The notes below the pieces were generated by a model. That model searched no databases, was not told where the DNA came from, and was given only the letters and a program-made list of their open reading frames with translations. From positions 7,225 to 71,224 of the forward strand of contig CAYFNE010000007.1 in the NCBI GenBank assembly GCA_964344355.1: a stretch of 64,000 nucleotides of DNA, given 5' to 3'. How positions within the stretch are numbered: position 1 is the stretch's first letter; each line of letters opens with the position of its first letter. The position numbers were made by a program, and so were the translations under genes. The DNA is from an uncultured Magnetococcales bacterium. Lineage in GTDB: Bacteria; Pseudomonadota; Magnetococcia; Magnetococcales; CAYFNE01. Below, piece after piece: positions 6,548 through 53,364 of the stretch.

Positions 6548-8236
6548 TTATTTTTCCGCCATGTTCCGCTCTCTGGCGCCGTCGAGCAGTTCCCGGGCGT
6601 TGCGGCGGGCGGCGGCGGTCACCCGGTTGCCGGCCAGCATGCGTGCCAGCTCCTCCTGGCGTTGGCCGTCATCCAGTTGATCGATGGTGATGCGTGGTCG
6701 ATCGTCGATGGTGGCTTTGGTCACTTTCAGATGGTTTTCCCCCCAGGCCGCCACTTGTGGCAGATGGGTGATGGCCAGCACCTGCCGGCCCCGGGCCACG
6801 CGCGCCAGCTTGGAACCGATGCCGGCCGCCACCCGGCCGCCGACGCCGACGTCCACTTCGTCGAAAATCAATGTCGAGAGGATCATCCGGTCGGCCAACA
6901 CCACCCGCAGGGCCAGGGTGATGCGGGAGAGTTCCCCGCCCGAAGCCACCTGTTTCAGGGGTTTCAAGGGTTCGCCGGGATTGGCGCTGACTTCGAAGGC
7001 GGCCTCTTCCGATCCCCGCGGCGAGGGGTCCCCGGGGCGCGGCTTCAGGGTGAGGGCGAACCGGGTGTTGGCCATGTGCAGGTCGCCCAACTGTTTTTCC
7101 ACCGCCCCGGTCAGCCGTTGGGCGGCTTTTTTGCGGCTGACGCTCAACTGTTTGGCCGCTTTTTCGTAAGCGGCGAGGGTTTCGCGCAGGTTTTCTTCCA
7201 GGCGCCGTTCATTTTCCCCGGCATGATCGATGGCATCGATCTCCTGGCGCCACTGCGCTTCCAGTTCCGGCAGTTGGTCCGCTTCGCGGTGATGTTTTCG
7301 GCACAGGCGGCGGATCAGGTCCAACCGTTCCTCCAATGTCTCCAGTTGCGCGGGATCGGTCTCCAACCCTTCCATATAGTGCCGGCACCGTTGCGCGGCA
7401 TCCTCCAGTTCGTAATGGAGCGACCGCACGCTCTCGGCGATGGGCAACAGGGCCGGGTCCAGTTCGGCGATCGATTCCAGAATGGCGGTCGCCTCCCCGG
7501 TAATGGCGCCGGCGGCCCGGGGTGACTCCTGGAGCAGTTCCCAGGCCTCCCGGGTCCCGTCGGCGAGACGGGTGGCATGGGCCAATCTGGAACGGCGGCC
7601 CTCCAGTTCGGCCATTTCACCGACGGTGACGCCGGCGCCGGTCAACTCTTCCAACTGAAAGGTGAGAAAGGCGTGCCGGTCGGCGGCATCCCGGGCCCGT
7701 TGGCGCAACGCGTCCAGTTCACCGCGCAACCGGCGCCATTTTTCCTGATGTTGCGTCACGGTGGCCAGGAGTTCGGGGTGGTCGGCGAAGGCGTCGAGGA
7801 TGGCCAGATGGCTGGCCGGGTCGAGCAGGGCCTGGTTGTCATGTTGACCGTGAACCTCCACCAGCAGGTCGCCCAGTTGCGACAGGGCCGACAGGGGAAT
7901 CTGTGTTTCGTTGATGAAGGCGCGGCTGGGACCGTTGCGGTTCAACACTCGGCGCAGGATCAACTCCGGGCTGTTCTCCTCCAGGGATTGCCGTTGCAGC
8001 CAGGGCCGGCAGGGGTGTTCGGTGGCCGGTTGAAAGGTGGCGGTGACCGTGGCCCGTTCAGCGCCGGTACGGATCAGGGCGCTGTCGGCCCGGGCCCCCA
8101 ACACCAGGGCCAGGGCGTCGATGAGGATCGACTTGCCCGCCCCGGTTTCGCCGCTGAGAATGGTCAGACCGCTGGTGAACTCCAGGTCCAGACGCTGGAT
8201 CAGGGCGATGTTTTCGATGGAGAGCCGTTGCAGCAT
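6548..8236 (-). CDS. recN: DNA repair protein RecN
   Basis: 562 aa. N-terminus MLQRLSIENIALIQRLDLEF...GETGAGKSILIDAL, a long coiled-coil middle, and C-terminal SGGELSRITLAL signature plus LIFDEVDVGVGG Walker B. Confidence 0.95.
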   Translation of the reverse strand: MLQRLSIENIALIQRLDLEFTSGLTILSGETGAGKSILIDALALVLGARADSALIRTGAERATVTATFQPATEHPCRPWLQRQSLEENSPELILRRVLNRNGPSRAFINETQIPLSALSQLGDLLVEVHGQHDNQALLDPASHLAILDAFADHPELLATVTQHQEKWRRLRGELDALRQRARDAADRHAFLTFQLEELTGAGVTVGEMAELEGRRSRLAHATRLADGTREAWELLQESPRAAGAITGEATAILESIAELDPALLPIAESVRSLHYELEDAAQRCRHYMEGLETDPAQLETLEERLDLIRRLCRKHHREADQLPELEAQWRQEIDAIDHAGENERRLEENLRETLAAYEKAAKQLSVSRKKAAQRLTGAVEKQLGDLHMANTRFALTLKPRPGDPSPRGSEEAAFEVSANPGEPLKPLKQVASGGELSRITLALRVVLADRMILSTLIFDEVDVGVGGRVAAGIGSKLARVARGRQVLAITHLPQVAAWGENHLKVTKATIDDRPRITIDQLDDGQRQEELARMLAGNRVTAAARRNARELLDGARERNMAEK

Positions 8237-8428: not shown

Positions 8429-9088
8429 ATGGCCGGTGAAGATTTCAAGAAAAACATTTTTGACCAGTTCGCCCGGGTGGGCAAGGCGTTGGCCAATGGT
8501 TCGCGGTTGGAGATCCTGGAGTTCCTGGCCCAGGGGACCTACACGGTCGAGGCCCTGGCCGAGGTGGCGCGTCTGTCGGTGGCCAACACCTCGCGCCATC
8601 TCCAGATCCTGCGTCAAGCCGGCCTGGTGGAGGGGGAACGTTCGGGCCAGCATGTGATCTATCGCCTGTCGGACCCGCTGGTGGTGGACCTGATGACCAC
8701 CTTGCGCACCCTGGCCGAGCGCCGTTTTGCCGAAGTGGACCGGTTGGTCCGCGATTATCTCACCATCCGCGATGCCCTGGAACCGGTGCCCTGGGAGGAG
8801 TTGCTGGAGCGGGTGCGCGCCGGCACGGTGACGGTGCTGGACGTGCGTCCGGAGGGCGAATATCGGGCCGGCCATCTGCCGCAGGCCGAAAACGTCCCCT
8901 TGAGACAACTGGAAGCGCGCATGGCCGGCCTGCCCCGGGATCGGGAGGTGATCGCCTATTGTCGCGGCCCATACTGTGTGTTGGCCTTCGAGGCTGTGGC
9001 CCGCTTACGAAAAAAAGGATTCAATGCCCGGCGCCTGCGGGACGGGTTTCCGGAGTGGCAACGGGCGGGACTGCCGGTGATTTCCTGA
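8429..9088 (+). CDS. ArsR-family transcriptional regulator fused to a rhodanese domain
   Basis: N-terminal winged HTH (RLEILEFLAQGTYTVEALAEVARLSVANTSRHLQILRQAGLV). C-terminal rhodanese (VLDVRPEGEYRAGHLP...IAYCRGPYC active-site loop). Confidence 0.9.
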   Translation: MAGEDFKKNIFDQFARVGKALANGSRLEILEFLAQGTYTVEALAEVARLSVANTSRHLQILRQAGLVEGERSGQHVIYRLSDPLVVDLMTTLRTLAERRFAEVDRLVRDYLTIRDALEPVPWEELLERVRAGTVTVLDVRPEGEYRAGHLPQAENVPLRQLEARMAGLPRDREVIAYCRGPYCVLAFEAVARLRKKGFNARRLRDGFPEWQRAGLPVIS

Positions 9089-9560
9089 TTTTCGGACAAA
9101 TGATGGGGAAAACGGGTCGAATGAAATGATTTTTGTCAATTTTTGGCGTTATTCGGCAAAAGGTTTCTCCATGATGAACGCAATATTTCGCGGGAATCGC
9201 CGATAAGGGGTGGCGGAAACCGGCTATGAATGGGTGGCCACCGGAAAACCTTTCGATGGTTTCGTTACGGGTGGCCCCGGGATGGCGGGGTCGTTCCGGT
9301 TCTCTGGTTGTCGATTCATTCGCGAAAAAAATAATTAGCATTGATGCTTAAGGGGTATTGCTTGAACATTTGTTTGTGGATAAAACAAATTATCGGTGAC
9401 ACGGCACGCCATTTGTTGCATGATGGCGGGCATGAATATCCGCTCCGGTTCAGCCGTTGCGGGGTGTTGTCGTCAGATCGGCACGATTGAGCGGATTTTT
9501 ATCCTTTGACCACCTGTTCGAATGGGCGGTTTTTTTGTGCTGGAATAAAAGATTTGTGAA

Positions 9561-10187
9561 ATGATTTTCAATGGTATTGACGGGAAAGGCGAAAAAGGGA
9601 ACATGAATGGTCTCGATACCTTCATGAACGGCGAGGAGCCGTCTCGTCAGTCAGCGGCATTGGCGGCGATTCTGGCCGCTCCCCAGTTTCCCGAGAGTGA
9701 TCTGGCCACCTTGCGGCGCATGGATCCGGACATTCCGTCAGACCTGGTTTTTTTGCGGCTCATGTCCACCAACGGATTGTTGCGCAACTGGTCGCCGGCC
9801 GCCAGTGCCTCCTGGGAGAGCCGTTGGGGATTGATCCTGCACGGATTGGCCGTCATGACCCGGGAACGGCGGGCCGCCCATGATCCCGACCTGCCGTTCG
9901 GCGCCGCCCTGATGCGGGCCGGATATGATGAAAACCGTCTCAACCGCCTTCTTCGGGCCAGGGGGGTGACCTTGCGGACCCTGTTGATGCAATCCTGGCA
10001 ATTCATGGCCCGGAAGGGGATATCGTTCGACTGGTCGACGGTGACGACCCTGATTTTGGCCGAGGATCACAACCCGGAACGGTTGGAACGGGCGCGCCAG
10101 GAGATCGCCCGGGACTATTATCGGGCCGACCACCAGGCCGGTCTGTCGGGGTCGCTTCCGGCAATGGATAACGGCAACCGGGGCTGA
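9561..10187 (+). CDS. Hypothetical protein, Cse2/CasB-like (type I-E Cascade small-subunit-like), orphan
   Basis: 208-aa ORF (or 194 aa from ATG 9603). The by-eye motif order parallels CasB/Cse2: LATLRRMDPDIPSDLVFLRL, PFGAALMRAGYDENRLNRLLRA, ISFDWSTVTTLIL, ARDYYRA. The confidence value is for the family call. That it is a real CDS is more likely, about 0.75. Confidence 0.5.
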   Translation: MIFNGIDGKGEKGNMNGLDTFMNGEEPSRQSAALAAILAAPQFPESDLATLRRMDPDIPSDLVFLRLMSTNGLLRNWSPAASASWESRWGLILHGLAVMTRERRAAHDPDLPFGAALMRAGYDENRLNRLLRARGVTLRTLLMQSWQFMARKGISFDWSTVTTLILAEDHNPERLERARQEIARDYYRADHQAGLSGSLPAMDNGNRG

Positions 10188-10375
10188 ACCCCGCTCCTTC
10201 CGCCGGTCCGGGGAAACCGTTTTGTTCCCGGGGTCATCGTCCCCTTTCCATGAACGCGCGATTGTGGATCGATGGTGTGGAAACCATACCGGACCACGAT
10301 CCGCCGCATCCCGTCTCTTTCCAGACATTTCCCGTCCTTCTCCCGGTCCGCGGTCGGGATAGCCGGCCTTTCGGG

Positions 10376-10391
10376 TGGCATGGAACCTGCT
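10376..10391 (+). promoter_or_regulatory. Candidate sigma-54 (-24/-12) promoter for the 10.6-20.3 kb operon
   Basis: TGGCATGgaacCTGCT versus consensus TGGCACG-N4-TTGCW, matching 10 of 12 specified positions. GG (10377-78) and GC (10389-90) have the canonical 12-nt register. Lies 179 nt upstream of ATG 10570. Confidence 0.5.
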
Positions 10392-10569
10392 TTGATTGTT
10401 TCCGTTCAACAATATGACCTTCCACCGGGGCGGTTCGGCAATATTTGCCCGGTTCCCCCCAGGAAATAGGTGCCCATCTCCCCAACAGGAAGGGGTTGGA
10501 ATATTTCAACGAGCCGCCGTGAAAAATACCGATACCGTACAAACCGATTCCAACCGTTCCCAAGGTGAA

Positions 10570-12573
10570 ATGCCGATCAAGGAGATGCTCAATCGGGCCA
10601 TCCACCTGCACCGCGAGGGAAACCCGCAGGAGGCGGTGCGGATTTATGATCAGTGTCTCTCCACCGGTAGCCAGGATGCCAATCTGCTCTATTTGCGCGG
10701 ATCGGCCGCCTTGGACCTCAGAAAACCTCAGGAGGCGGTCACTTTTCTCAGTGCCGCCGTGGCGAAACAACCCGGTGTGGTCACGTTTCAGGAGGCATTG
10801 GCCGCCGCCCTGTTGGCCAGTGGCAACCTGAATGCCGCCGCTCCCCGTTATGAGGAGGCCCTGCGGCTGGAACCCGAGAACGTTTCACTCCTGTTTCAAC
10901 TGGGATGCGTCCTGGTGGACCAGGGGAAAAACGAGGAAGCGGTCGAAAAACTGATCCTGGCGCTCAATCTCTTGAATCAAAGCCGGGATCCGATCAATCA
11001 ACGGCTCCGGGCCTTGGAGCCGAATCCCATCCGGATCGGCGCCTATAAAAAGTTGGCACAGATCAACGCCAAACTCGATAAACGGGTTTTTGAACAACAT
11101 TTTCTTCGGTTGCACAAACACCACGACCCCCGGGAAAAGGCGCCCAATGATTCCAGCTCCGTGGATATGCTCTTTTTGGATGCCAAAATGGCCCTGGAGA
11201 CCGCCCGAAAACAGAACCGCATTCAGCAGACGATTTATATCACCGCCTTGCAGGTTTGTTATTACCTGGGGGAGCCCATTGCCGATGCACCGGAAAATTT
11301 GATCTGCCTGCCGAGAAAAAAGTTGGCCGAATTTTTGACCACCACCCGGATACGGCGTCCGCGGGCGGTCTATTTCGATCCGGCGCGGCCCGATCAGGAG
11401 GCCATTGCCTGGAAAGTGGCCGAAATACTGGAATATATCTATCTGCTCAATCAAAAGACCGGAAACAATTATCTATTGCGAAATCGGGATCTTGAGCCGG
11501 TCCTCAAATCCGGCGAGCCGCTGCGTTTTTTTCTCGGGGCCTCGCGGCGGACGGTGGTGATGCAATACTGTTCGAGAAATCTGGCCAAGGCCCTGGAGCG
11601 GCAGGGTTGTCAGGTCAAATTTCTGATCGAGGAAAATGATCTGGAAGAGGTGGGCTTTCATACCGTCATGCAGGAATACCACGCCTTCAATCCCCACGCC
11701 GTGGTCAACATCAACCATCTCAACAATCTCTGGCTCCATCCCGACGTCTACAATATCACCTGGTGGCAGGATTTCATGCCGACCTTGACCGATCCCAAAC
11801 CCATGCCCTGGCGGGAGCGTGATATCGCCCTGGCCGCCGATCCGAATCTCATCCCCTATCTGGAAAAGACCGGCGCCAAGGATGTTCAGCGCCAGGAGTT
11901 TTGTGTGGATACCCATCTGTTCCGTAGCCGCACTCCCTGGCGGGAGCGTCGCAAGGTGGTGTTCATCGGCGGTTCCTATCTCCACCGTTTGAGCCGCTCT
12001 GCCGGTGAAATCGCAGTGATCCGGGGGGTTAATGAGAGAATGGAAGCCGGTGAACGGGTAACCCGGGAGTTTTTGCAGGAGATGGTTGATCGGTCCGGTC
12101 TGTCATTGCAACAAGGGTTCGAGTTGGGACCGGCCTTGACCTTTGTCGTACGTCAAACCGCCGTCGAATGGTCATGCCTGTTGGCCCCGGAAATGGGTCT
12201 GGAAGTGGAGGTGTATGGTCGGCTTTGGGAACAAAATCCCATTGTTAAACCCTATTTCAAGGGCGAACTGCCCCACGGCGAGGCGGTGGCCGAAGTCTAT
12301 GATCAGGCCAAATATGCCATTGCGGCCACCCCCTATGTGATCGATAGTCAACGGCTGTCGGAAATTTCCGCCTGCGGTGCGGTACCATTGATCTATGATT
12401 CCCGGCACCTGGCCCAAAAACCCCACTGGGACGAGGAGTGCCTGTGGTTTCACTCCCGGGAGACGTTCAAAGCCTGTTTGAACAAACGGCCGGTTAAGGA
12501 TCCCGGCATCATCGCCCGGACCCACTCCTATGATGCCTTCGCCCGGCGGATCCTGGAATGGGTGCGTCGATGA
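10570..12573 (+). CDS. TPR-repeat protein with C-terminal CgeB/GT1-like glycosyltransferase domain
   Basis: ORF track starts at TTG 10396. I prefer ATG 10570 (MPIKEMLNRAIHLHREGNPQEAVRIYDQCL, a typical TPR start) because the sigma-54-like element would place the transcription start near 10400. C-terminal half (RFFLGASRRTVVMQYCSRNLAKALERQGCQVKF...VVFIGGSY...PYVIDSQRLSEISACGAVPLIYD) looks like a CgeB-type glycosyltransferase. Confidence 0.75.
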   Translation: MPIKEMLNRAIHLHREGNPQEAVRIYDQCLSTGSQDANLLYLRGSAALDLRKPQEAVTFLSAAVAKQPGVVTFQEALAAALLASGNLNAAAPRYEEALRLEPENVSLLFQLGCVLVDQGKNEEAVEKLILALNLLNQSRDPINQRLRALEPNPIRIGAYKKLAQINAKLDKRVFEQHFLRLHKHHDPREKAPNDSSSVDMLFLDAKMALETARKQNRIQQTIYITALQVCYYLGEPIADAPENLICLPRKKLAEFLTTTRIRRPRAVYFDPARPDQEAIAWKVAEILEYIYLLNQKTGNNYLLRNRDLEPVLKSGEPLRFFLGASRRTVVMQYCSRNLAKALERQGCQVKFLIEENDLEEVGFHTVMQEYHAFNPHAVVNINHLNNLWLHPDVYNITWWQDFMPTLTDPKPMPWRERDIALAADPNLIPYLEKTGAKDVQRQEFCVDTHLFRSRTPWRERRKVVFIGGSYLHRLSRSAGEIAVIRGVNERMEAGERVTREFLQEMVDRSGLSLQQGFELGPALTFVVRQTAVEWSCLLAPEMGLEVEVYGRLWEQNPIVKPYFKGELPHGEAVAEVYDQAKYAIAATPYVIDSQRLSEISACGAVPLIYDSRHLAQKPHWDEECLWFHSRETFKACLNKRPVKDPGIIARTHSYDAFARRILEWVRR

Positions 12574-37264: not shown

Positions 37265-38200
37265 ATGGCTAATCAAGACAGCAGCTGCAAGCAGATCTTC
37301 AGTTATCCCGATATGGTACGGGATCTGCTCGTTGGGTTCATCAAGGAAGATTGGATCGAACAACTGGATTACACCACTCTGGAGAAGGTTGGCGGCAGCT
37401 ATGTGACCGACGATCTTCGTGAACGGATGGATGATGTCATCTGGCGGGTCCGCTGGGGTCGGGAGTGGCTCTATGTCTATGTGATCCTGGAATTCCAGAC
37501 CACGGTGGATCGGTTCATGGCGGTACGCATGGATGTCTATGTGATGTTGCTCTACCAGGACCTGATCAAGTCCAATCAGATCGGCAAGGGAGAAAAATTA
37601 CCGCCCGTGCTGCCGGTTGTGCTATACAATGGGAAGGCGGAGTGGGCAGCGGCTCTGGATGTGGCGGACGTGATCCTCCCCGCTCCGGTCGGTCTGGGGC
37701 GCTACCGTCCGCGGATGCGGTATCTGCTCATCGACGAAAATCGCCTCGGACAAACGGACTTGATTCTGGACCGCAACCTGGCGGCAGCTCTGTTTCGGTT
37801 GGAAAGGAGCAGGACCCCCGAAGATGTCCGCACCGTGGTCCGGGAGTTGATCGACTGGTTGAAAGCGCCAGCGCAGACCGGATTGCGTCGAGCGTTCTCC
37901 GTGTGGCTTGGCCGGGTGCTGTTGCCCAGGAAGCTGCCCGGGCAGAAGGTGCCGGAAATTATGGATTTACAGGAGGTGGACGCCATGTTGGCCGAGACGG
38001 TGCAGGAATGGACAAAACAGTGGAAAGAGGAAGGACGCCAGGAGGAAGCTGCGTCATTTCTGCTGCGTCTGCTTCAACGGCGATTTGGATTCTTGCCTGC
38101 CGACCTCATTGAAAAGGTCCGGTCGGCAGATAGAGGTACCCTGGAAACATGGGGTTATCGGGTTTTGGACGCTCAAGCATTGGACGATATATTTGTGTGA
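37265..38200 (+). CDS. Rpn-family (YhgA-like) recombination-promoting nuclease, PD-(D/E)XK fold, with DUF4351-like C-terminus
   Basis: CKQIFSYPDMVRDLLVGFI...DDVIWRVRW...WLYVYVILEFQTTVDRFMAVRMDVYVMLLYQDL is typical of Rpn/transposase_31. The C-terminal FLLRLLQRRFGFLPADLIEKV is DUF4351-like. Confidence 0.8.
   Translation: MANQDSSCKQIFSYPDMVRDLLVGFIKEDWIEQLDYTTLEKVGGSYVTDDLRERMDDVIWRVRWGREWLYVYVILEFQTTVDRFMAVRMDVYVMLLYQDLIKSNQIGKGEKLPPVLPVVLYNGKAEWAAALDVADVILPAPVGLGRYRPRMRYLLIDENRLGQTDLILDRNLAAALFRLERSRTPEDVRTVVRELIDWLKAPAQTGLRRAFSVWLGRVLLPRKLPGQKVPEIMDLQEVDAMLAETVQEWTKQWKEEGRQEEAASFLLRLLQRRFGFLPADLIEKVRSADRGTLETWGYRVLDAQALDDIFV
37985..38200 (+). CDS. Possible intragenic small ORF (RpnS-like, 71 aa) translated in frame from within the Rpn gene
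   Basis: AGGAGG at 37971-37976, then an 8-nt spacer, then the in-frame ATG 37985. The product MLAETVQEWTKQWKEE... covers exactly the C-terminal domain. Confidence 0.35.
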   Translation: MLAETVQEWTKQWKEEGRQEEAASFLLRLLQRRFGFLPADLIEKVRSADRGTLETWGYRVLDAQALDDIFV

Positions 38201-38415: not shown

Positions 38416-40347
38416 ATGTTTGATGATCCCCACCAGGTTCTTGAGCGGGTTTTCGGTTTTCGAAAATTTCGTGACGGACAGAAGGCGGTGATCGACCGGC
38501 TTCTGGCGGGAAAACCGGTACTGGCGATTTTTCCGACCGGTGGCGGCAAGAGCCTTTGTTATCAATTGCCGGCCTTGCTGTTTGACGGTTTGACCCTGGT
38601 CATCTCGCCACTCATTGCCTTGATGAAGGACCAGATTGATTTCCTGGTCGGCCGCGGGGTGGCGGCGGCTCGCCTGGATTCGAGTTTGGACCTCGAACGG
38701 ACACGGGCGGTTTACCGGGATCTCGAAGCCGGACGGATCAAGCTTTTGTATATCTCTCCCGAACGTTTGGGGAATGAACGGTTTCTGCAATCGTTGCGTC
38801 GTTGGAAACTCTCTCTCCTGGCCATTGACGAGGTACATTGCGTCAGTGAATGGGGGCACAATTTTCGGCCGGACTACCTGAAGATCGCCACCCTGGCCCA
38901 ACTGTTGAACGTGACGCGTGTCCTGGGATTGACCGCAACGGCCACCCCAACGGTTGCCGGAGATATCGCCACAGCCTTCGGCATTCGGGCCGAGGATGTG
39001 GTTCAGACCGGTTTTTACCGTCCCAATCTCAATTTGATCGTAACCCCCGTTGCTGACGGAAAACGCCAGGAACATCTGTTGAAGCGTCTGCGCGAACGAC
39101 CGTCGGGGCCGACCATCGTCTATGTCACCCTGCAACGAACCGCCGAGGAGGTGGCGGCGTTTCTGGTGACCCATGATCTGGATGCCCATCCCTACCATGC
39201 CGGGATGAACAACGAGGAACGGCATGCGATTCAAGATGCCTTCATGGCTTCGGACCGAATGGTGGTGGTGGCGACCATCGCCTTCGGTATGGGCGTGGAC
39301 AAAGCCGACATCCGGGCGGTTTATCATTATAATCTTCCCAAGGGTCTGGAGGGATATGCCCAGGAGATCGGCCGGGCCGGACGGGATGGCCGTGAGTCGG
39401 TTTGCGAACTCCTGGCCTCGCCCGGGGATGTGGTGGTATTGGAGAATTTCATCTATGGCGATACGCCGACCAGGGAGGCGGTCACCACCATTTTGGCGGA
39501 TATTTTCGGTCGTGGCCCGACCTTTGACGTCTCCATCCATACATTGTCCAACCGGCATGATATCCGGCCGTTGGTGGTCAAGACCATTTTCGCCTATCTG
39601 GAGTTGGCGGGGGTGATCCGGTCCACGGGGCCTTTCTACACCGAGTTTCGTTTCCAACCACAAAAATCCTCTCGTGAGATCCTGGCCGGTTTCGATGCCG
39701 GGCGGGCCGAATTTTTGCGGCGTGTTTTTCAACAGGCGCAACGGGGTCGAACCTGGTTTTTTCTCGACGTGGATCGGGTCGGCCAGATCACCGGTCAGTC
39801 CAGGGAACGGATCGTGAATGCCCTGGATTACCTGGAACGGCGGGGAGACCTGATCCTGAAGGTTGGCGGTGTGCGGCAGGGCTATCGGTTGGTGGATGGT
39901 TCGCCGCTTGATTTGAACCATCTCAGGGAGATGTTGAATACCCGTTTTCAGCAACGGGAGGCCCAGGATATCGCCCGGGTACGAACCGTTCTGGAGTTCG
40001 CGGCCCATGATGGCTGTCTGACCCGGTTTCTCCTGGCCTATTTCGGTGAGCGGCGGGGGGAATGCGGTCATTGCGGTCATTGCCGGGGCGGGAAAGCGGG
40101 TAAATTGCCGGCCATCCGCCATCCTGCCTTGGGGAACGAGGCGGCGGAAATGCTCGGTCGGCTTCGGGACGAAGGACACCAGGCCCTGGCCACATCGCGT
40201 CAGTTGGCCCGTTTTCTGTGTGGCCTCTCTTCGCCAGCGACGACCCGGGCCCGATTGCGCCGACATCCACGATTCGGTATCTGGACCACGGTACCGTTTC
40301 ATCGGGTCCTGGCTTTCGTCGAACAGCGGCAACGGACCGTTCGCTGA
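38416..40347 (+). CDS. recQ: RecQ-family ATP-dependent DNA helicase
   Basis: FGFRKFRDGQKAVIDRLLAGKPVLAIFPTGGGKSLCYQLPA (motifs 0/I), DEVH box AIDEVHCVSEWGHNFRPDY, and a Zn-binding CGHCGHC region. Confidence 0.9.
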   Translation: MFDDPHQVLERVFGFRKFRDGQKAVIDRLLAGKPVLAIFPTGGGKSLCYQLPALLFDGLTLVISPLIALMKDQIDFLVGRGVAAARLDSSLDLERTRAVYRDLEAGRIKLLYISPERLGNERFLQSLRRWKLSLLAIDEVHCVSEWGHNFRPDYLKIATLAQLLNVTRVLGLTATATPTVAGDIATAFGIRAEDVVQTGFYRPNLNLIVTPVADGKRQEHLLKRLRERPSGPTIVYVTLQRTAEEVAAFLVTHDLDAHPYHAGMNNEERHAIQDAFMASDRMVVVATIAFGMGVDKADIRAVYHYNLPKGLEGYAQEIGRAGRDGRESVCELLASPGDVVVLENFIYGDTPTREAVTTILADIFGRGPTFDVSIHTLSNRHDIRPLVVKTIFAYLELAGVIRSTGPFYTEFRFQPQKSSREILAGFDAGRAEFLRRVFQQAQRGRTWFFLDVDRVGQITGQSRERIVNALDYLERRGDLILKVGGVRQGYRLVDGSPLDLNHLREMLNTRFQQREAQDIARVRTVLEFAAHDGCLTRFLLAYFGERRGECGHCGHCRGGKAGKLPAIRHPALGNEAAEMLGRLRDEGHQALATSRQLARFLCGLSSPATTRARLRRHPRFGIWTTVPFHRVLAFVEQRQRTVR

Positions 40348-49974: not shown

Positions 49975-52900
49975 TCAGGCGGCATATTGCATGAGCTGGA
50001 CGGGTTGCGGTTTCAGGTGGGCCTTGACCCGATCGACCATGCCGGGCTCACCCGCCGGGCTGTTGGATCGCGGCGTCATGGTGCTGAAAACCTCCGACAA
50101 ACCACGCACCTCCAACACCAGGTTGCGGGAAGCGATTTCCAGGTCCTGCAACAGTCGGAGATGTTCATCCCGGCAGTTCTCCCGTTCCTGCTCGAACCGA
50201 TCGAGCCGGGATTGAATGTCATTTCCCTGTTTGCTGGCCTGGCCGAGAAGTTCGTTGATCCTGCGGTTGGTCAACGCGTTGTCCCGGGGTGGGAAACCGC
50301 CTTTCCGAACGAGGGTCCGGCGGCGCATGTTTTGTGAAATCACCTGGCGCTGGATTTCACTGCAGGCATTCTGAAGGGCATACACCCGCTGGTTGATCGC
50401 CAGGTTGGTTTGCCGTTCGATGTGCTGGATCTCTGCGAGCGTGTCGGCGAATTTGCTTTCCAGCTTTCGTAACCGTTCGACGATGATCGGCTGGCCGCTT
50501 TTGCCCTTGTGGATTTGACGGCTGATCTGATCGAGGTCCAAACCGTCGACGCCGGTGTAGAGAATGGTCCGGACCTGATCGAGATGCTGAAAGGCCGCCA
50601 ATACCTCGTTGAAATCCCGGACGATGCGGCGATACCGTTTTTCGAGGGTACGGATCCGGCCCACCTTGTTCACTCCCAACAACTCCGGCAACCGTTGGGC
50701 GATGTCCAGCAGGGGGAGAAGGCTGTTTTTTTCCAGGTTCGGCAGGTCGGTCCGATGAATCCGCACGGCCTCGGAACCGAAGGCGCGAATCATTTTTTTC
50801 AGTTCGTCATCATCGCCGGTCAATGAATCCAGGCCGCGTAACCAACTGCGGCGGGTGTGTTTGAAATCCGAAAACGGTTCCATGAAGGTTTTTTGGAACA
50901 GGTACCCACTCACCCGTTTCATCCAGGAGGGTGCGACCGGGGTGAATGCCGGCCAACCGAGAAAAACGCCCAGGGTCACCGTTTTGGGATTTTTCCTGCG
51001 GTTCTTCCGAAGGTTGTCGATGTCCCGGGCGCCATTGTTGCCATCATGGTATAGCGCGTTGATCATCAGGGGGGTCGCCTCACCGGTCTGAAGGGTGGTG
51101 TTGAATGCCGATGGCTCCATGCCATGGGCGATGTGGAAATCCCGGGCGAACCGGACCTGGTTCCACATCTGTCCGCGTTCGATATCCCGGAAATGGGCGC
51201 GGAAAGTGGGAACCGTCAAGACATGTTCGGAATCCAGGCCGGGGATGATGCTGTGCAGGAGCCGCCGCAGATGAACCTCTCGGTTGTTGGAAAAAAGGTG
51301 CAGTGTCCGTATGCGATCGATACATCCCTCCATGTCGGCGATGCGAACGGTGAGGAACAGGCTCCGGAACCAGGTGACGGTCCGAACCAGGGCGGAGCGG
51401 TCCTTGCGGTCCCGCAGGATCGGCCGGATATCCTCCAGCATCCGGTAGAAGGCATCCTGCAGGCAGCGCCGGTTGGGCATCGCCACCTCCGGCAGCATCC
51501 TGCGCAGTTCCGGATTTTTGAAATAGTCCTCACTGCGATTGATGAAGGCGGTCTCCCACTCCAACACATCGCCCAGGGCGGTGATCACCGTCTGCCGGTC
51601 CTCGATGCCCAACCGGGCGGTGCGGCGGGCCAGGAGCAGCACGTCGGCCAGGTCCATGCCGGCGGCCAGGGCCAACACCGTCATCAGGATCAAATGGGCC
51701 CAGATGGGTCCGTACTGGTTGGTGAAAAACCGTTTCAGGTCTTCCATGCTCCGGTGGCTGGCCCGGGGAATGGCATGGCGTTTGAGCGCCTCGATGGCGG
51801 AAATTTCCGGGGCGATGGTGATCTCGATGTAATAGTTGTTGAAACGGGCGCCGCCGGCCTTGTCCACCTGTTCGAGGATGTCCACATACCGGGAAACCAA
51901 CCCCTGGAGTTCCTTCATGATCCGGTCATAGTTCACCCGGTGCCGTTCCATCTCCCGGACCACCCGTTCCACCACCTTGTTCACCTGATAGTGTTCCAGA
52001 AAGAAGATGCGGTTGATGCCCGGGAAGAGGGTGTTTTTATCCAAAAGGTTTTTTTCCATCTCATTGAAATGATGACGCGCCCGGGATGTGGTCTGATCAA
52101 GACTTTTCTTGTGTTCGAGGGCGAGTTTTTCCAGTTTGTCGGCCACTGGAACCGAGAGGTCGATGCCGGAGCTGCTCAACATGTAGTCCACCTGTCTGGC
52201 CAGGGGGCCATTGCCGAAGGTGTGGCGAACGTCGCGGCTGCCCGGTTCATAACCGCCGTAGATAATGAACTTCTTTCCCCAAAACCGGGGTCCCGGATAG
52301 GCGATGTTGCTGGAAGCCCGACCTTCCCGTTCATCCTTGGGCAGGGCGTAATAGCGCGCCAAAATGGTCTCGATGGTCCCTTCCAGTTGCGCGTGCAGAC
52401 CATACAGGGAGTCCATGTCTCCCGATGCCACCGCCTTGGAGGAGCCGATGGCGGCGTTGACCTGGTGGCGAATGTCCTCGACCTGCCGGCTCAACTCCAT
52501 CTGTTTGGAAAAGAGGGTGACGAAACCGTCATAGTTGGTCTTGATCGAAACCGCCATCAGCACCGCTGCCAGGGCCGTCCAGCGCGGGTGGCGCATGAAG
52601 GTGTTGCGGATCCCTTTGAGCACCCCGCCGGATTCGGCGATGTTGCGGAACACCCGTCCCTTGAAGTCGAGGATTGCCGAAGAGAACAGGACACCGACGG
52701 CGAAGGAGAGGAGGGTTCGGGCGAGCTCCCCCTCTTCCCCGAGAAAGGGTTGGCCGAACAACGCTTTTCCGAAAGGGGTTTGAACCAGTTCGTTCATTCC
52801 CCAGGCGGTGGTGACGGTCGATCCGCAAAAAAGGAGGGCCACCAGGGGCGGTTTGGCCGAGGAGAACAGTTTGGAAACGGTTTCGGACAGGCGATGCCGG

Positions 52901-53364
52901 AACTGGGGATAGGGATGGGGCTCGGTCCAGATCTCGCGGAAGGTCGGATGAAGGATCGATGGCCGGGGCAACTGATCGAGGACATCGGCATGGATGGCCT
53001 GAAACCGTTGTTCGATCTTTTTCAAACTGTCGCGGAACAGGTGGCGTGCCAACTTGTGCAGCGGATCGTTGTCTAAACGGGATTCATCGCCGATCTCAAC
53101 GGCCTTTTTAAAGGTGTTCATGTGGCTCGTGAACGGTTTTCCGGTCGGTGCCTTGCCGGCGTCGTGACCAATGTCCCGGTTTGAGCCGGGGCCCTGCATC
53201 ATCGGTTGTTGAACGTTTTTCGAATACCAGTGGACGATTTTACGGATGGTCACATTCAAACCACCCTCGCCGATTTCGCTGGCCGAGTTCCAACCAGTTT
53301 GCAGAACGGTCAGCGCTTTTTTGCCGTAGTACTCAAAAAAGGGGTTTTTGTGCGACTTTTTCAT
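49975..53364 (-). CDS. Large hypothetical membrane/coiled-coil protein (1129 aa), no family recognised
   Basis: Uninterrupted 1129-aa ORF. Hydrophobic spans: PPLVALLFCGSTVTTAWGM, LLSFAVGVLFSSAILDF, WTALAAVLMAVSIKTNY, IWAHLILMTVLALAAGMDLADVLLLA. Long heptad-like charged stretches. No P-loop or other catalytic motif seen. Confidence 0.75.
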   Translation of the reverse strand: MKKSHKNPFFEYYGKKALTVLQTGWNSASEIGEGGLNVTIRKIVHWYSKNVQQPMMQGPGSNRDIGHDAGKAPTGKPFTSHMNTFKKAVEIGDESRLDNDPLHKLARHLFRDSLKKIEQRFQAIHADVLDQLPRPSILHPTFREIWTEPHPYPQFRHRLSETVSKLFSSAKPPLVALLFCGSTVTTAWGMNELVQTPFGKALFGQPFLGEEGELARTLLSFAVGVLFSSAILDFKGRVFRNIAESGGVLKGIRNTFMRHPRWTALAAVLMAVSIKTNYDGFVTLFSKQMELSRQVEDIRHQVNAAIGSSKAVASGDMDSLYGLHAQLEGTIETILARYYALPKDEREGRASSNIAYPGPRFWGKKFIIYGGYEPGSRDVRHTFGNGPLARQVDYMLSSSGIDLSVPVADKLEKLALEHKKSLDQTTSRARHHFNEMEKNLLDKNTLFPGINRIFFLEHYQVNKVVERVVREMERHRVNYDRIMKELQGLVSRYVDILEQVDKAGGARFNNYYIEITIAPEISAIEALKRHAIPRASHRSMEDLKRFFTNQYGPIWAHLILMTVLALAAGMDLADVLLLARRTARLGIEDRQTVITALGDVLEWETAFINRSEDYFKNPELRRMLPEVAMPNRRCLQDAFYRMLEDIRPILRDRKDRSALVRTVTWFRSLFLTVRIADMEGCIDRIRTLHLFSNNREVHLRRLLHSIIPGLDSEHVLTVPTFRAHFRDIERGQMWNQVRFARDFHIAHGMEPSAFNTTLQTGEATPLMINALYHDGNNGARDIDNLRKNRRKNPKTVTLGVFLGWPAFTPVAPSWMKRVSGYLFQKTFMEPFSDFKHTRRSWLRGLDSLTGDDDELKKMIRAFGSEAVRIHRTDLPNLEKNSLLPLLDIAQRLPELLGVNKVGRIRTLEKRYRRIVRDFNEVLAAFQHLDQVRTILYTGVDGLDLDQISRQIHKGKSGQPIIVERLRKLESKFADTLAEIQHIERQTNLAINQRVYALQNACSEIQRQVISQNMRRRTLVRKGGFPPRDNALTNRRINELLGQASKQGNDIQSRLDRFEQERENCRDEHLRLLQDLEIASRNLVLEVRGLSEVFSTMTPRSNSPAGEPGMVDRVKAHLKPQPVQLMQYAA

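What the first reader, a model, noticed from the sequence alone, without database searches (positions are those of the whole stretch)
9561..10187. Orphan Cse2/CasB-like gene with no Cascade, cas1/2/3 or CRISPR array nearby
Seen: a ~200-aa ORF flanked by unusually long non-coding stretches (472 nt upstream, 382 nt downstream). Its motif order follows type I-E small subunits as I recall them. Examples are LATLRRMDPDIPSDLVFLRL (E. coli CasB: AQIRRVSEPDELRDIPAFYRL) and PFGAALMRAGYDENRLNRLLRA (SLGRALANSGRINERRIFQLIRA). Others are ISFDWSTVTTLIL (VLDWPLMARMLTWW) and a C-terminal ARDYYRA (T. thermophilus Cse2: WAREYYG). Nothing else cas-like occurs in the 9 kb upstream or 54 kb downstream. Known: Cse2/Cas11 normally functions only as a dimer inside Cascade. 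Inference: this is either a remnant of a lost I-E locus or a domesticated nucleic-acid-binding small subunit with a new partner. The reference sequences are from memory, so the family call needs confirmation.
Basis: partly seen in the sequence, partly recalled or inferred. Interest (0 to 1): 0.6.

Follow-up and report, generated by a model that had tools for sequence, protein, structure and literature searches.

The report
Stand-alone CRISPR Cascade small-subunit gene (cse2)
This is a genuine, intact gene for the small subunit (Cse2/CasB/Cas11e) of a type I-E CRISPR complex, sitting alone in a Magnetococcales chromosome with no other CRISPR parts in about 71 kb; it is most likely a stranded leftover and not a new system.

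Summary
The ORF at 9561-10187 (+) exists. It is a Cse2/CasB (Cas11e) protein by three profile libraries (PADLOC Cas11e E=1.7e-37; Pfam and NCBIfam above their curated cut-offs). A confident AlphaFold model (pLDDT 88) has only Cse2/CasB chains as its top 18 PDB matches. No other cas gene, array or solitary repeat occurs from the contig end 16.8 kb upstream to 54 kb downstream. The nearest relatives (42-48% identical) sit in canonical cas3-cse1-cse2-cas7-cas5-cas6e-cas1-cas2 loci with arrays.

The gene is a singleton: nothing at 50% identity or more among 1.84 billion cluster representatives, and no ortholog in 185,579 species genomes. It is absent beside RecN in other Magnetococcales, where that side of RecN is variable. 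The lineage is poorly sampled, so this absence is weak evidence.

The gene is not visibly decaying. The frame is intact, synonymous codon usage matches the host, indels fall in loops, and conserved-site retention is normal for its phylogenetic distance.

Best reading: a stranded but still intact I-E small subunit with no CRISPR role in cis. Selection for a trans-acting or new role is not excluded. The rest of the genome could not be checked. Interest is modest.

The parts
9561..10187 (+). Longest ORF (208 aa) encoding the Cse2/CasB (Cas11e) homolog; stop codon at 10185-10187
   Evidence: called as a 208-aa gene with PF09485 on the parent contig
9603..10187 (+). Probable true CDS from Met15 (194 aa). 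The start is chosen because 119 homologs (194-212 aa) begin at this alignment position. RBS evidence is uninformative because host genes here mostly lack Shine-Dalgarno motifs.
   Evidence: AlphaFold model of this 194-aa form has pLDDT 88.2, pTM 0.83
9089..9602 (.). Upstream non-coding flank, 514 nt, GC 46.7%, 7-8 stops in every + frame. No Cas-profile or tblastn hit. Two weak sigma-70-like sites (9308-9335, 9396-9424) and a weak hairpin plus T-run (9514-9540).
10188..10518 (.). Downstream non-coding flank, 331 nt, GC 58.9%. No coding signal in any frame and no cas7 remnant.
10189..10218 (+). CCCCGC-N14-CGGGGAAACC motif 2 nt after the stop, loosely like a I-E repeat stem plus 3' handle. Probably chance.
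8429..9088 (+). Context only: upstream neighbour, ArsR-type HTH plus rhodanese protein
10519..12573 (+). Context only: downstream neighbour, a TPR plus glycosyltransferase-like protein. It is the first gene of a ~25-kb radical-SAM / sulfotransferase / methyltransferase island.
6548..8236 (-). Context only: RecN. It was used to identify the host (Magnetococcales) and to compare synteny.

Best explanation
The gene is a bona fide, full-length type I-E small-subunit gene (cse2/casB/cas11e) resident in a Magnetococcales chromosome. It is stranded outside any cas operon, in a variable region on the 5' side of recN. It is most likely the surviving piece of a type I-E system whose other genes and array are gone from this location, or a piece that was moved or transferred on its own.

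Its product should fold as a normal Cse2 helical bundle. The known job of Cse2 (background knowledge) is to sit as a dimer along the Cas7 backbone of Cascade and stabilise the R-loop by holding the displaced DNA strand. That job needs Cas7, Cas5, Cas8e and crRNA, none of which is encoded within reach. In cis it therefore has no CRISPR function. If expressed, it would be a free small helical protein with, at most, weak non-specific nucleic-acid binding.

Shown: family, fold, intactness, isolation, singleton status. Inferred: the origin from a lost or relocated I-E locus and the lack of a present function.
For: Family and fold.

Nearest relatives (42-48% identity) lie in complete I-E operons. 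There cse1 overlaps the cse2 start by 4 nt, cas7 follows after 43 nt, and 29-nt-repeat arrays are present. This shows where such a gene normally lives.

No other cas gene, array or solitary repeat from 16.8 kb upstream to 54 kb downstream.

Singleton:
- Cluster of one sequence.
- Nothing above 48% identity among 5.8 billion clusters.
- Only itself at E<=1e-30 among 1.84 billion representatives.
- No ortholog in 185,579 species genomes or in JGI metagenomes.

Relatives keep RecN-ClpS-ClpA but have unrelated or mobile DNA on the other side of RecN: integrase and phage genes in L009, a tRNA-like sequence and AT-rich DNA in L012, and no Cse2 in any of them.

No neighbouring gene of unknown function could serve as a partner.

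It is not an assembly artefact. The same arrangement appears in the ENA assembly and in Logan assemblies of two different runs, and a 99-kb NCBI contig also carries the exact protein.
Against: The gene shows none of the marks of decay:
- The 194-208 codon frame is intact. The indels relative to the nearest clade are in-frame and fall in predicted loops.
- The synonymous codon score is 0.376 against host genes at 0.403 +/- 0.105. Cas genes of the nearest relatives score -0.13 to 0.14 on the same table.
- It keeps 40 of 42 conserved hydrophobic positions, the top of the control range of 33-40.
- Its 23 of 78 conserved-site changes are what its distance predicts (27.0 expected, z=-1.1).

An internal operon gene left whole, with both neighbours gone without trace and a 46.7%-GC flank abutting its start, is not what a simple deletion scar looks like.

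Under neutrality, only about 90 substitutions (15.5% of sites) are compatible with a 5% chance of no stop codon, counting stop-creating point changes only. So the stranding would have to be fairly recent.

Absence of orthologs is weak evidence because the lineage is poorly sampled. The nearest RecN relatives are 70% and 64% identical on 2.9- and 5.3-kb contigs, and all others are 58% or less.
Confidence: 0.45

Rival explanations
1. Domesticated solo Cas11e. The gene is kept by selection for a Cascade-independent role, for example as a small nucleic-acid-binding or scaffolding protein with a new, unlinked partner.
For: The frame is intact, synonymous codon usage matches the host, and the in-frame coding signal is strong (0.352 against -0.61 and -0.46 off-frame). 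Retention of the hydrophobic core is the best among distance-matched controls, and every near-universal basic residue is kept (R38, R39, R112, R165). There is no excess loss at conserved sites. The flanks look like mature intergenic DNA, not ex-cas sequence, and the upstream region is AT-rich.
Against: No ortholog exists anywhere, so there is no evidence of conservation. Relatives have nothing like it at this site. No adjacent candidate partner exists, and the neighbours are an ArsR-rhodanese regulator and a glycan-modification island. The reviews and classification read here describe no stand-alone Cas11e. Retention of conserved basic positions is slightly low: 9 of 15 against a control median of 11, which is within range.
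Confidence: 0.25
2. Trans-acting subunit. The genome carries a type I-E (or related) Cascade on another contig, and this gene supplies or supplements its small subunit.
For: The protein looks like a fully competent Cse2. Only about 71 kb of a multi-megabase genome was inspected. The gene's host-like codon usage suggests long residence alongside the host's other genes.
Against: Both related loci examined carry cse2 inside the operon, translationally coupled to cse1. None of the top 120 Cse2 hits is named as Magnetococcales; the two organism names given are Chloroflexota. No I-E repeat or array is in the window. In E. coli, Cas11 is reported to be dispensable for silencing and plasmid interference (PMC12235044, title and abstract), so a distant spare copy is not obviously needed.
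Confidence: 0.2
3. Not a real feature: a chance ORF in GC-rich DNA, a mis-assembled chimera, or a false family call.
For: The window has 149 ORFs of 120 aa or more, many of them spurious. An overlapping antisense ORF of 224 aa exists at 9738-10412.
Against: Profile E-values reach 1.7e-37 with end-to-end coverage and the fold match is specific. The codon signal favours this frame and not the antisense ORF, which scores -0.002. The identical arrangement appears in independent assemblies.
Confidence: 0.02

Closest known systems
Cse2/CasB (Cas11e), small subunit of type I-E Cascade (Pfam PF09485, TIGR02548; structures 4h79, 2zca, 3wa8; E. coli Cascade 4tvx, 4u7u, 5h9f)
   Same: Same family by curated profile thresholds, same length (about 195 aa) and the same all-helical fold (TM 0.5-0.76). 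It keeps every column that is invariant across the whole 120-sequence alignment of its nearest clade (21 columns), including the LRRMDP and RLNRL motifs.
   Different: It is encoded alone. There is no cse1 overlapping its start, no cas7, cas5 or cas6e after it, no cas3/1/2 and no array. It is only 38-48% identical to any other sequence known. It has two loop deletions and one loop insertion relative to the nearest clade.
Canonical type I-E loci of the nearest relatives (L003, L004; the two named clade members are Chloroflexota)
   Same: The cse2 genes are homologous (E about 1e-36 by tblastn).
   Different: Those loci have the full eight-gene operon and arrays of 55-78 or more repeats (GGTTCCCCCGCACACGCGGGGATAGACC). 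Their cas genes use codons unlike this host's.
Derived Cas11 arrangements in the literature: I-E3 (PD-(D/E)xK nuclease fused to Cas11), the type IV-B Cas11 filament, and Cas11 made by internal translation of cas8
   Same: These show that small subunits can be rearranged, fused or used differently (PMC12669027; PMC8730458; bioRxiv 10.1101/2020.04.18.045682 listed).
   Different: All of those remain inside a cas locus with Cas7 and Cas5 partners. Here there is no fusion domain and no locus.

Membership tests
Cse2/CasB (Cas11e) protein family | Significant match to the curated family profiles over the whole domain | tested here: met
   PF09485: 40.7 bits against cut-off 24.6, profile 1-137/137. 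TIGR02548: 45.8 against 28.5. PADLOC Cas11e: E=1.7e-37, profile 8-155/156.
Cse2/CasB (Cas11e) protein family | All-alpha Cse2 fold | tested here: met
   AlphaFold2 model with pLDDT 88.2 and pTM 0.83, ten helices. Foldseek against PDB: the top 18 hits are all Cse2/CasB, probability 1.00, TM 0.49-0.76, then a break to probability 0.12 or less.
Cse2/CasB (Cas11e) protein family | Retention of family-conserved residues at the level expected for a real member | tested here: met
   It keeps 21 of the 25 columns that are invariant among the other 119 clade members. It changes 23 of 78 columns conserved at 90% or more, against 17-34 in 17 distance-matched Cse2 controls (z=-1.1). Hydrophobic positions kept: 40 of 42. 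Basic positions kept: 9 of 15.
Type I-E CRISPR-Cas system (as a working locus) | Adjacent Cascade genes cas8e/cse1, cas7, cas5 and cas6e | tested here: not met
   tblastn with two sets of I-E proteins hits only cse2. Six-frame translations of both flanks give 0 PADLOC hits at E<=10. All neighbours are annotated as non-cas.
Type I-E CRISPR-Cas system (as a working locus) | cas3 and the cas1-cas2 adaptation module | tested here: not met
   The only SF2 helicase (38416-40347) is RecQ-type with a RecQ zinc-binding domain. Its best PADLOC hits are DpdF and PsyrT, it shows no HD-domain hit, and it lies 28 kb away.
Type I-E CRISPR-Cas system (as a working locus) | CRISPR array of ~29-nt I-E repeats | tested here: not met
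   TRF, Rfam and spaced direct repeats find nothing. The nearest-clade repeat has no match with fewer than 9 mismatches, which is chance level.
Type I-E CRISPR-Cas system (as a working locus) | A I-E locus elsewhere in the same genome | not testable with these tools
   Only the parent contig (96.5-99 kb) can be reached. The genome is not among the species representatives scanned. About 25 kb of the contig to the right of the window was not seen, because look-ups failed.
Domesticated (exapted) solo Cas protein | The solo arrangement is conserved across related genomes | tested here: not met
   No ortholog in any collection. The RecN neighbourhoods of five relatives lack it. Caveat: the lineage is poorly sampled.
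Domesticated (exapted) solo Cas protein | Evidence of purifying selection or expression | tested here: inconclusive
   The intact frame, host-like codon usage and normal conservation profile are compatible with selection but do not prove it. No orthologs are available for dN/dS, and no expression data exist. Promoter-like sites are at chance level (2 found, 1.0 expected).
Decaying pseudogene or relic | Frame disruption, truncation, or excess loss at conserved sites | tested here: not met
   Full-length and in frame. Not an outlier once distance is controlled for.

The most novel reading that the evidence does not exclude
A type I-E small subunit has been retained on its own under selection in a Magnetococcales lineage and works outside Cascade, for instance as a free nucleic-acid-binding helical protein with an unlinked partner. 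This would be the first exapted stand-alone Cas11e.
Probability: 0.2. Interest if true: 0.65.

Novelty: new member of a known kind. Interest (0 to 1): 0.33.

Why it matters
Small subunits (Cas11) are regarded as pure structural parts of Cascade-type complexes. An intact, host-adapted copy with no complex in sight is either a snapshot of how CRISPR loci are dismantled or a first hint that Cas11e can be reused alone.

The present evidence cannot tell these apart. The gene is unique to one poorly sampled lineage, so its general significance is limited. It is a cheap target for follow-up by scanning the complete MAG and computing pN/pS from the source reads.

In practice, it shows that a single Cse2 hit should not be taken as evidence that a genome has a type I-E system.

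Tried and rejected
1. 'The orphan is decaying.' It changes 23 of 78 columns conserved in its nearest clade, where members average 2 and reach at most 13. I first read this as relaxed constraint. I rejected that after a control: Cse2 representatives from other sub-clades at the same distance change 17-34 of those columns (regression expectation 27.0, z=-1.1). The apparent loss of arginines (9 of 15 basic positions kept) is also within the control range of 7-14. Net charge (0) is normal for the clade (0.9 +/- 2.7).

2. Cas remnants in the flanks. tblastn with Cse1, Cas7 and other Cas proteins from L003 and L004 and six-frame translations against PADLOC find nothing. Power is limited for short, frameshifted fragments at about 40% identity.

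3. Solitary CRISPR repeat. The post-stop motif at 10189-10218 is unique in the window (0.07 expected). But I defined the pattern after seeing the sequence. Unbiased tests are negative, and the hairpin is not predicted to form.

4. Structured RNA in the flanks. Rfam finds nothing, and the fold z-score of the upstream flank is -1.57.

5. Mobile-element origin or anti-CRISPR decoy. There are no relatives in IMG/VR or in phage records. One plasmid hit is an annotated casB in Salinibacter. No integrase lies next to the gene.

6. Synteny via the ArsR-rhodanese neighbour. The 80 loci returned are all unrelated organisms with no Cse2, RecN or TPR-glycosyltransferase nearby.

7. Sequence-only searches of PDB with the protein or with the clade profile miss all solved Cse2 structures. 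Fold comparison was needed.

8. The first AlphaFold run, with 27 sequences, was poor (pLDDT 59.6) and was discarded.

9. My error: for minus-strand ORFs I trimmed the start codon instead of the stop codon. Context look-ups 25, 26 and 75 therefore failed, and the contig beyond the window's right end was not inspected. The domain scans and the RecN search are unaffected.

10. Start-site choice by RBS is uninformative, because host genes here mostly lack Shine-Dalgarno motifs.

Full report
**1. What is there.**
An ORF of this size means little in this 59%-GC window, which has 149 ORFs of 120 aa or more, including a 224-aa antisense ORF across the same place. The evidence that it is a gene comes from homology and codon statistics.

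- In-frame codon log-likelihood is 0.352 per codon. Host genes average 0.460 +/- 0.088, the two off-frames score -0.61 and -0.46, and the antisense ORF scores -0.002.
- The N-termini of 119 homologs (194-212 aa) align with Met15, so the true start is probably 9603, giving 194 aa. Ribosome-binding sites cannot decide this, because most host genes here lack one.

**2. Family.**
The call made from memory is correct.

- Pfam CRISPR_Cse2 scores 40.7 bits (cut-off 24.6) over the full profile.
- The NCBIfam casB_cse2 equivalog scores 45.8 bits (cut-off 28.5).
- PADLOC Cas11e gives E=1.7e-37 over positions 8-155 of 156.

Sequence searches of PDB with the protein or with a clade profile found no Cse2, so I compared folds. 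A first AlphaFold model from 27 sequences was poor (pLDDT 59.6). A second model from 120 sequences was confident (pLDDT 88.2, pTM 0.83, ten helices). Foldseek against PDB returned Cse2/CasB chains as its top 18 matches: T. fusca 4h79, 5u07, 5u0a and 6c66; E. coli Cascade 4u7u, 5cd4, 4tvx and 5h9f; M. ruber 3wa8; T. thermophilus 2zca and 4h7a. All had probability 1.00 and TM 0.49-0.76. Everything below them had probability 0.12 or less.

**3. Is it alone?**
Within what can be seen, yes.

- No tandem or spaced repeats resemble an array, and there is no Rfam hit.
- The 16 Cas proteins of two related I-E loci were searched against the whole window by tblastn. Only cse2 hit (E=7e-37); nothing else reached E<0.01.
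- Gene content was taken from the precomputed Pfam labels on the parent contig and from my own Pfam and PADLOC scans. The window holds:
  - a secretin and type II secretion / type IV pilus genes, then ClpA/ClpS, RecN and an ArsR-rhodanese regulator;
  - [cse2];
  - a roughly 25-kb island of TPR-glycosyltransferase, radical-SAM, sulfotransferase, APS-kinase and methyltransferase genes;
  - a YhgA-like transposase, a RecQ-type helicase, glutamate synthase, many two-component and GGDEF proteins, a sigma-54 activator and DnaJ.
- The contig ends 16.8 kb upstream of the gene with no cas gene.
- About 25 kb of the contig beyond the window's right end was not inspected. My look-ups failed because of a coordinate slip on minus-strand ORFs.
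- The arrangement is not an assembly artefact. It recurs in the ENA assembly and in Logan assemblies of two separate runs, and a 99-kb NCBI contig also carries the exact protein.

**4. Relatives and their homes.**
The protein is a cluster of one.

- The word-indexed search of 5.8 billion clusters found 242 relatives, and by alignment none is more than 48% identical.
- The exhaustive HMMER scan of 1.84 billion representatives found only the protein itself at E<=1e-30, and the next hit was 7e-29.
- The two nearest relatives examined sit in textbook loci: cas3-cse1-cse2-cas7-cas5-cas6e-cas1-cas2. There cse1 overlaps the cse2 start by 4 nt, cas7 starts 43 nt after cse2, and long arrays of the repeat GGTTCCCCCGCACACGCGGGGATAGACC follow.
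- No close copy exists in 185,579 species genomes, JGI metagenomes, IMG/VR or phage records. The single plasmid hit is an annotated casB.

**5. Host and synteny.**
RecN places the contig in Magnetococcales. It is 55-58% identical to named Magnetococcus and Magnetococcales MAGs. The closest relatives, at 70% and 64%, are on contigs of 2.9 and 5.3 kb.

In five relatives RecN-ClpS-ClpA is conserved, but the other side of RecN differs each time. One has an integrase and phage genes, one has sensor kinases, and one has a tRNA-like sequence followed by AT-rich DNA. None has Cse2 or the ArsR-rhodanese gene.

So the gene lies at a synteny breakpoint in a variable region. The lineage is so thinly sampled that the lack of orthologs says little about selection.

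**6. Decaying or maintained?**
I first found that the orphan departs from the consensus at 23 of 78 columns conserved at 90% or more in its nearest clade. Clade members average 2 and reach at most 13. Six of the departures are at conserved arginine columns, five substitutions and one gap. That looked like relaxed constraint.

The proper control removed the effect. Cse2 representatives of other sub-clades that are equally distant from that clade depart at 17-34 of the same columns. The regression expectation for the orphan is 27.0, so z=-1.1.

Other measures also look normal:
- It keeps a hydrophobic residue at 40 of 42 conserved hydrophobic columns (controls 33-40).
- It keeps a basic residue at 9 of 15 conserved basic columns (controls 7-14, median 11). 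This includes all four near-universal ones: R38, R39, R112 and R165.
- Net charge is normal.
- The two deletions and one insertion relative to the clade fall in predicted loops.
- The synonymous codon score is 0.376 against host genes at 0.403 +/- 0.105. The cas genes of the nearest relatives score -0.13 to 0.14 on the same table. So this is not merely GC-richness, and it implies long residence in this or a similar genome.
- 3.3% of possible point substitutions would create a stop. Counting stop-creating point changes only, a neutral copy has a 5% chance of remaining open after about 90 substitutions, or 15.5% of sites.

**7. Flanks.**
- Upstream (9089-9602) is 46.7% GC with 7-8 stops in each forward frame.
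- Downstream (10188-10518) is 58.9% GC with no coding signal.
- Both values lie inside the window's intergenic range of 0.536 +/- 0.075. Several other gaps in my gene list are 451-938 nt, some of which may hold uncalled small ORFs. The flanks are therefore not exceptional.
- Neither flank matches any Cas profile in six frames.
- Promoter-like and terminator-like matches are near chance, and no structured RNA is evident.
- A motif 2 nt after the stop (CCCCGC-N14-CGGGGAAACC) recalls a I-E repeat. It fails unbiased tests, so I treat it as chance.

**8. Interpretation.**
What is shown: this is a real, intact, host-adapted Cas11e gene with no Cascade, adaptation genes or array within about 71 kb. 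It has no known orthologs and sits in a variable region.

What is inferred: Cse2 is known only as a dimer on the Cas7 backbone that stabilises the R-loop (background knowledge). All related genes examined lie inside I-E operons. The most economical reading is therefore that this copy was stranded by loss or rearrangement of a I-E locus, or by transfer of a fragment, and has no CRISPR role in cis (confidence 0.45).

Against a simple relic:
- The gene is whole.
- Both neighbours are gone without trace.
- The upstream flank is not ex-cas DNA.
- Nothing indicates decay.

These points keep two rivals alive: a domesticated solo protein (0.25), and a subunit acting in trans with a Cascade on another contig (0.20). 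The literature held here describes Cas11 fusions and odd uses only inside cas loci. It also reports that E. coli Cas11 is dispensable for some Cascade functions (PMC12235044). I found no report of a stand-alone Cas11e.

**9. Verdict.**
The evolutionary reading is unresolved. The gene is a new, divergent member of a known family in an unusual but not demonstrably functional context, and interest is modest. The decisive checks are a cas and array scan of the complete MAG and pN/pS from the source reads.

Noticed in passing
window 10189-10218 (+): CCCCGCTCCTTCCGCCGGTCCGGGGAAACC begins 2 nt after the cse2 stop. It loosely resembles a I-E repeat stem plus 3' handle, with a 14-nt loop instead of 4. 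It is unique in the window (0.07 expected), but the pattern was defined post hoc. Unbiased alignment to the real repeat and folding are both negative.
   Followed up: partly
window 38416-40347 (+) and 37265-38200 (+): A RecQ-family helicase (DEAD, Helicase_C, RecQ_Zn_bind) scores very high on the PADLOC DpdF (1e-137) and PsyrT (8e-107) models. It sits directly downstream of a YhgA-like Transposase_31 / DUF4351 gene. This may be a small defence or mobile module.
   Followed up: no
window 49975-53364 (-): A 1128-aa ORF with good codon-position GC signal has no Pfam hit at E<=1e-5 and no PADLOC hit.
   Followed up: no
window about 10519-36593: A ~25-kb island of TPR-glycosyltransferase, three radical-SAM (B12-binding and SPASM), aminotransferase, TPR-sulfotransferase, APS kinase, PEP-utilising, AMP-binding and several methyltransferase genes. 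It is probably a sulfated-glycan or protein-glycosylation cluster.
   Followed up: no
L012:1-620, L009:1-8000: In Magnetococcales relatives the 5' side of recN carries a tRNA-like sequence followed by AT-rich DNA (L012), or an integrase plus phage genes including a terminase (L009). This suggests an integration hot spot at the position where the orphan lies. The tRNA was read by eye and not run through ARAGORN.
   Followed up: partly
window 9308-9540 (+): Two weak sigma-70-like sites (9308-9335, 9396-9424) are followed by a weak hairpin plus T7 run (9514-9540), all inside the upstream flank. This could be a small transcript or the cse2 leader. The counts are near chance.
   Followed up: no
proteins P0253, P0263, P0273, P0294, P0303, P0311, P0395: Several relatives carry the Cse2 domain at the C-terminus of 600-813-aa proteins, presumably Cse1-Cse2 fusions. 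Others carry it after 100-190-aa N-terminal extensions. Their contexts were not examined.
   Followed up: no
L004:4007-4264: Upstream of cas3 in a related I-E locus there is a cluster of five ~34-nt direct repeats spaced 39-42 nt apart, plus a second tandem pair. This may be a regulatory or iteron-like element.
   Followed up: no
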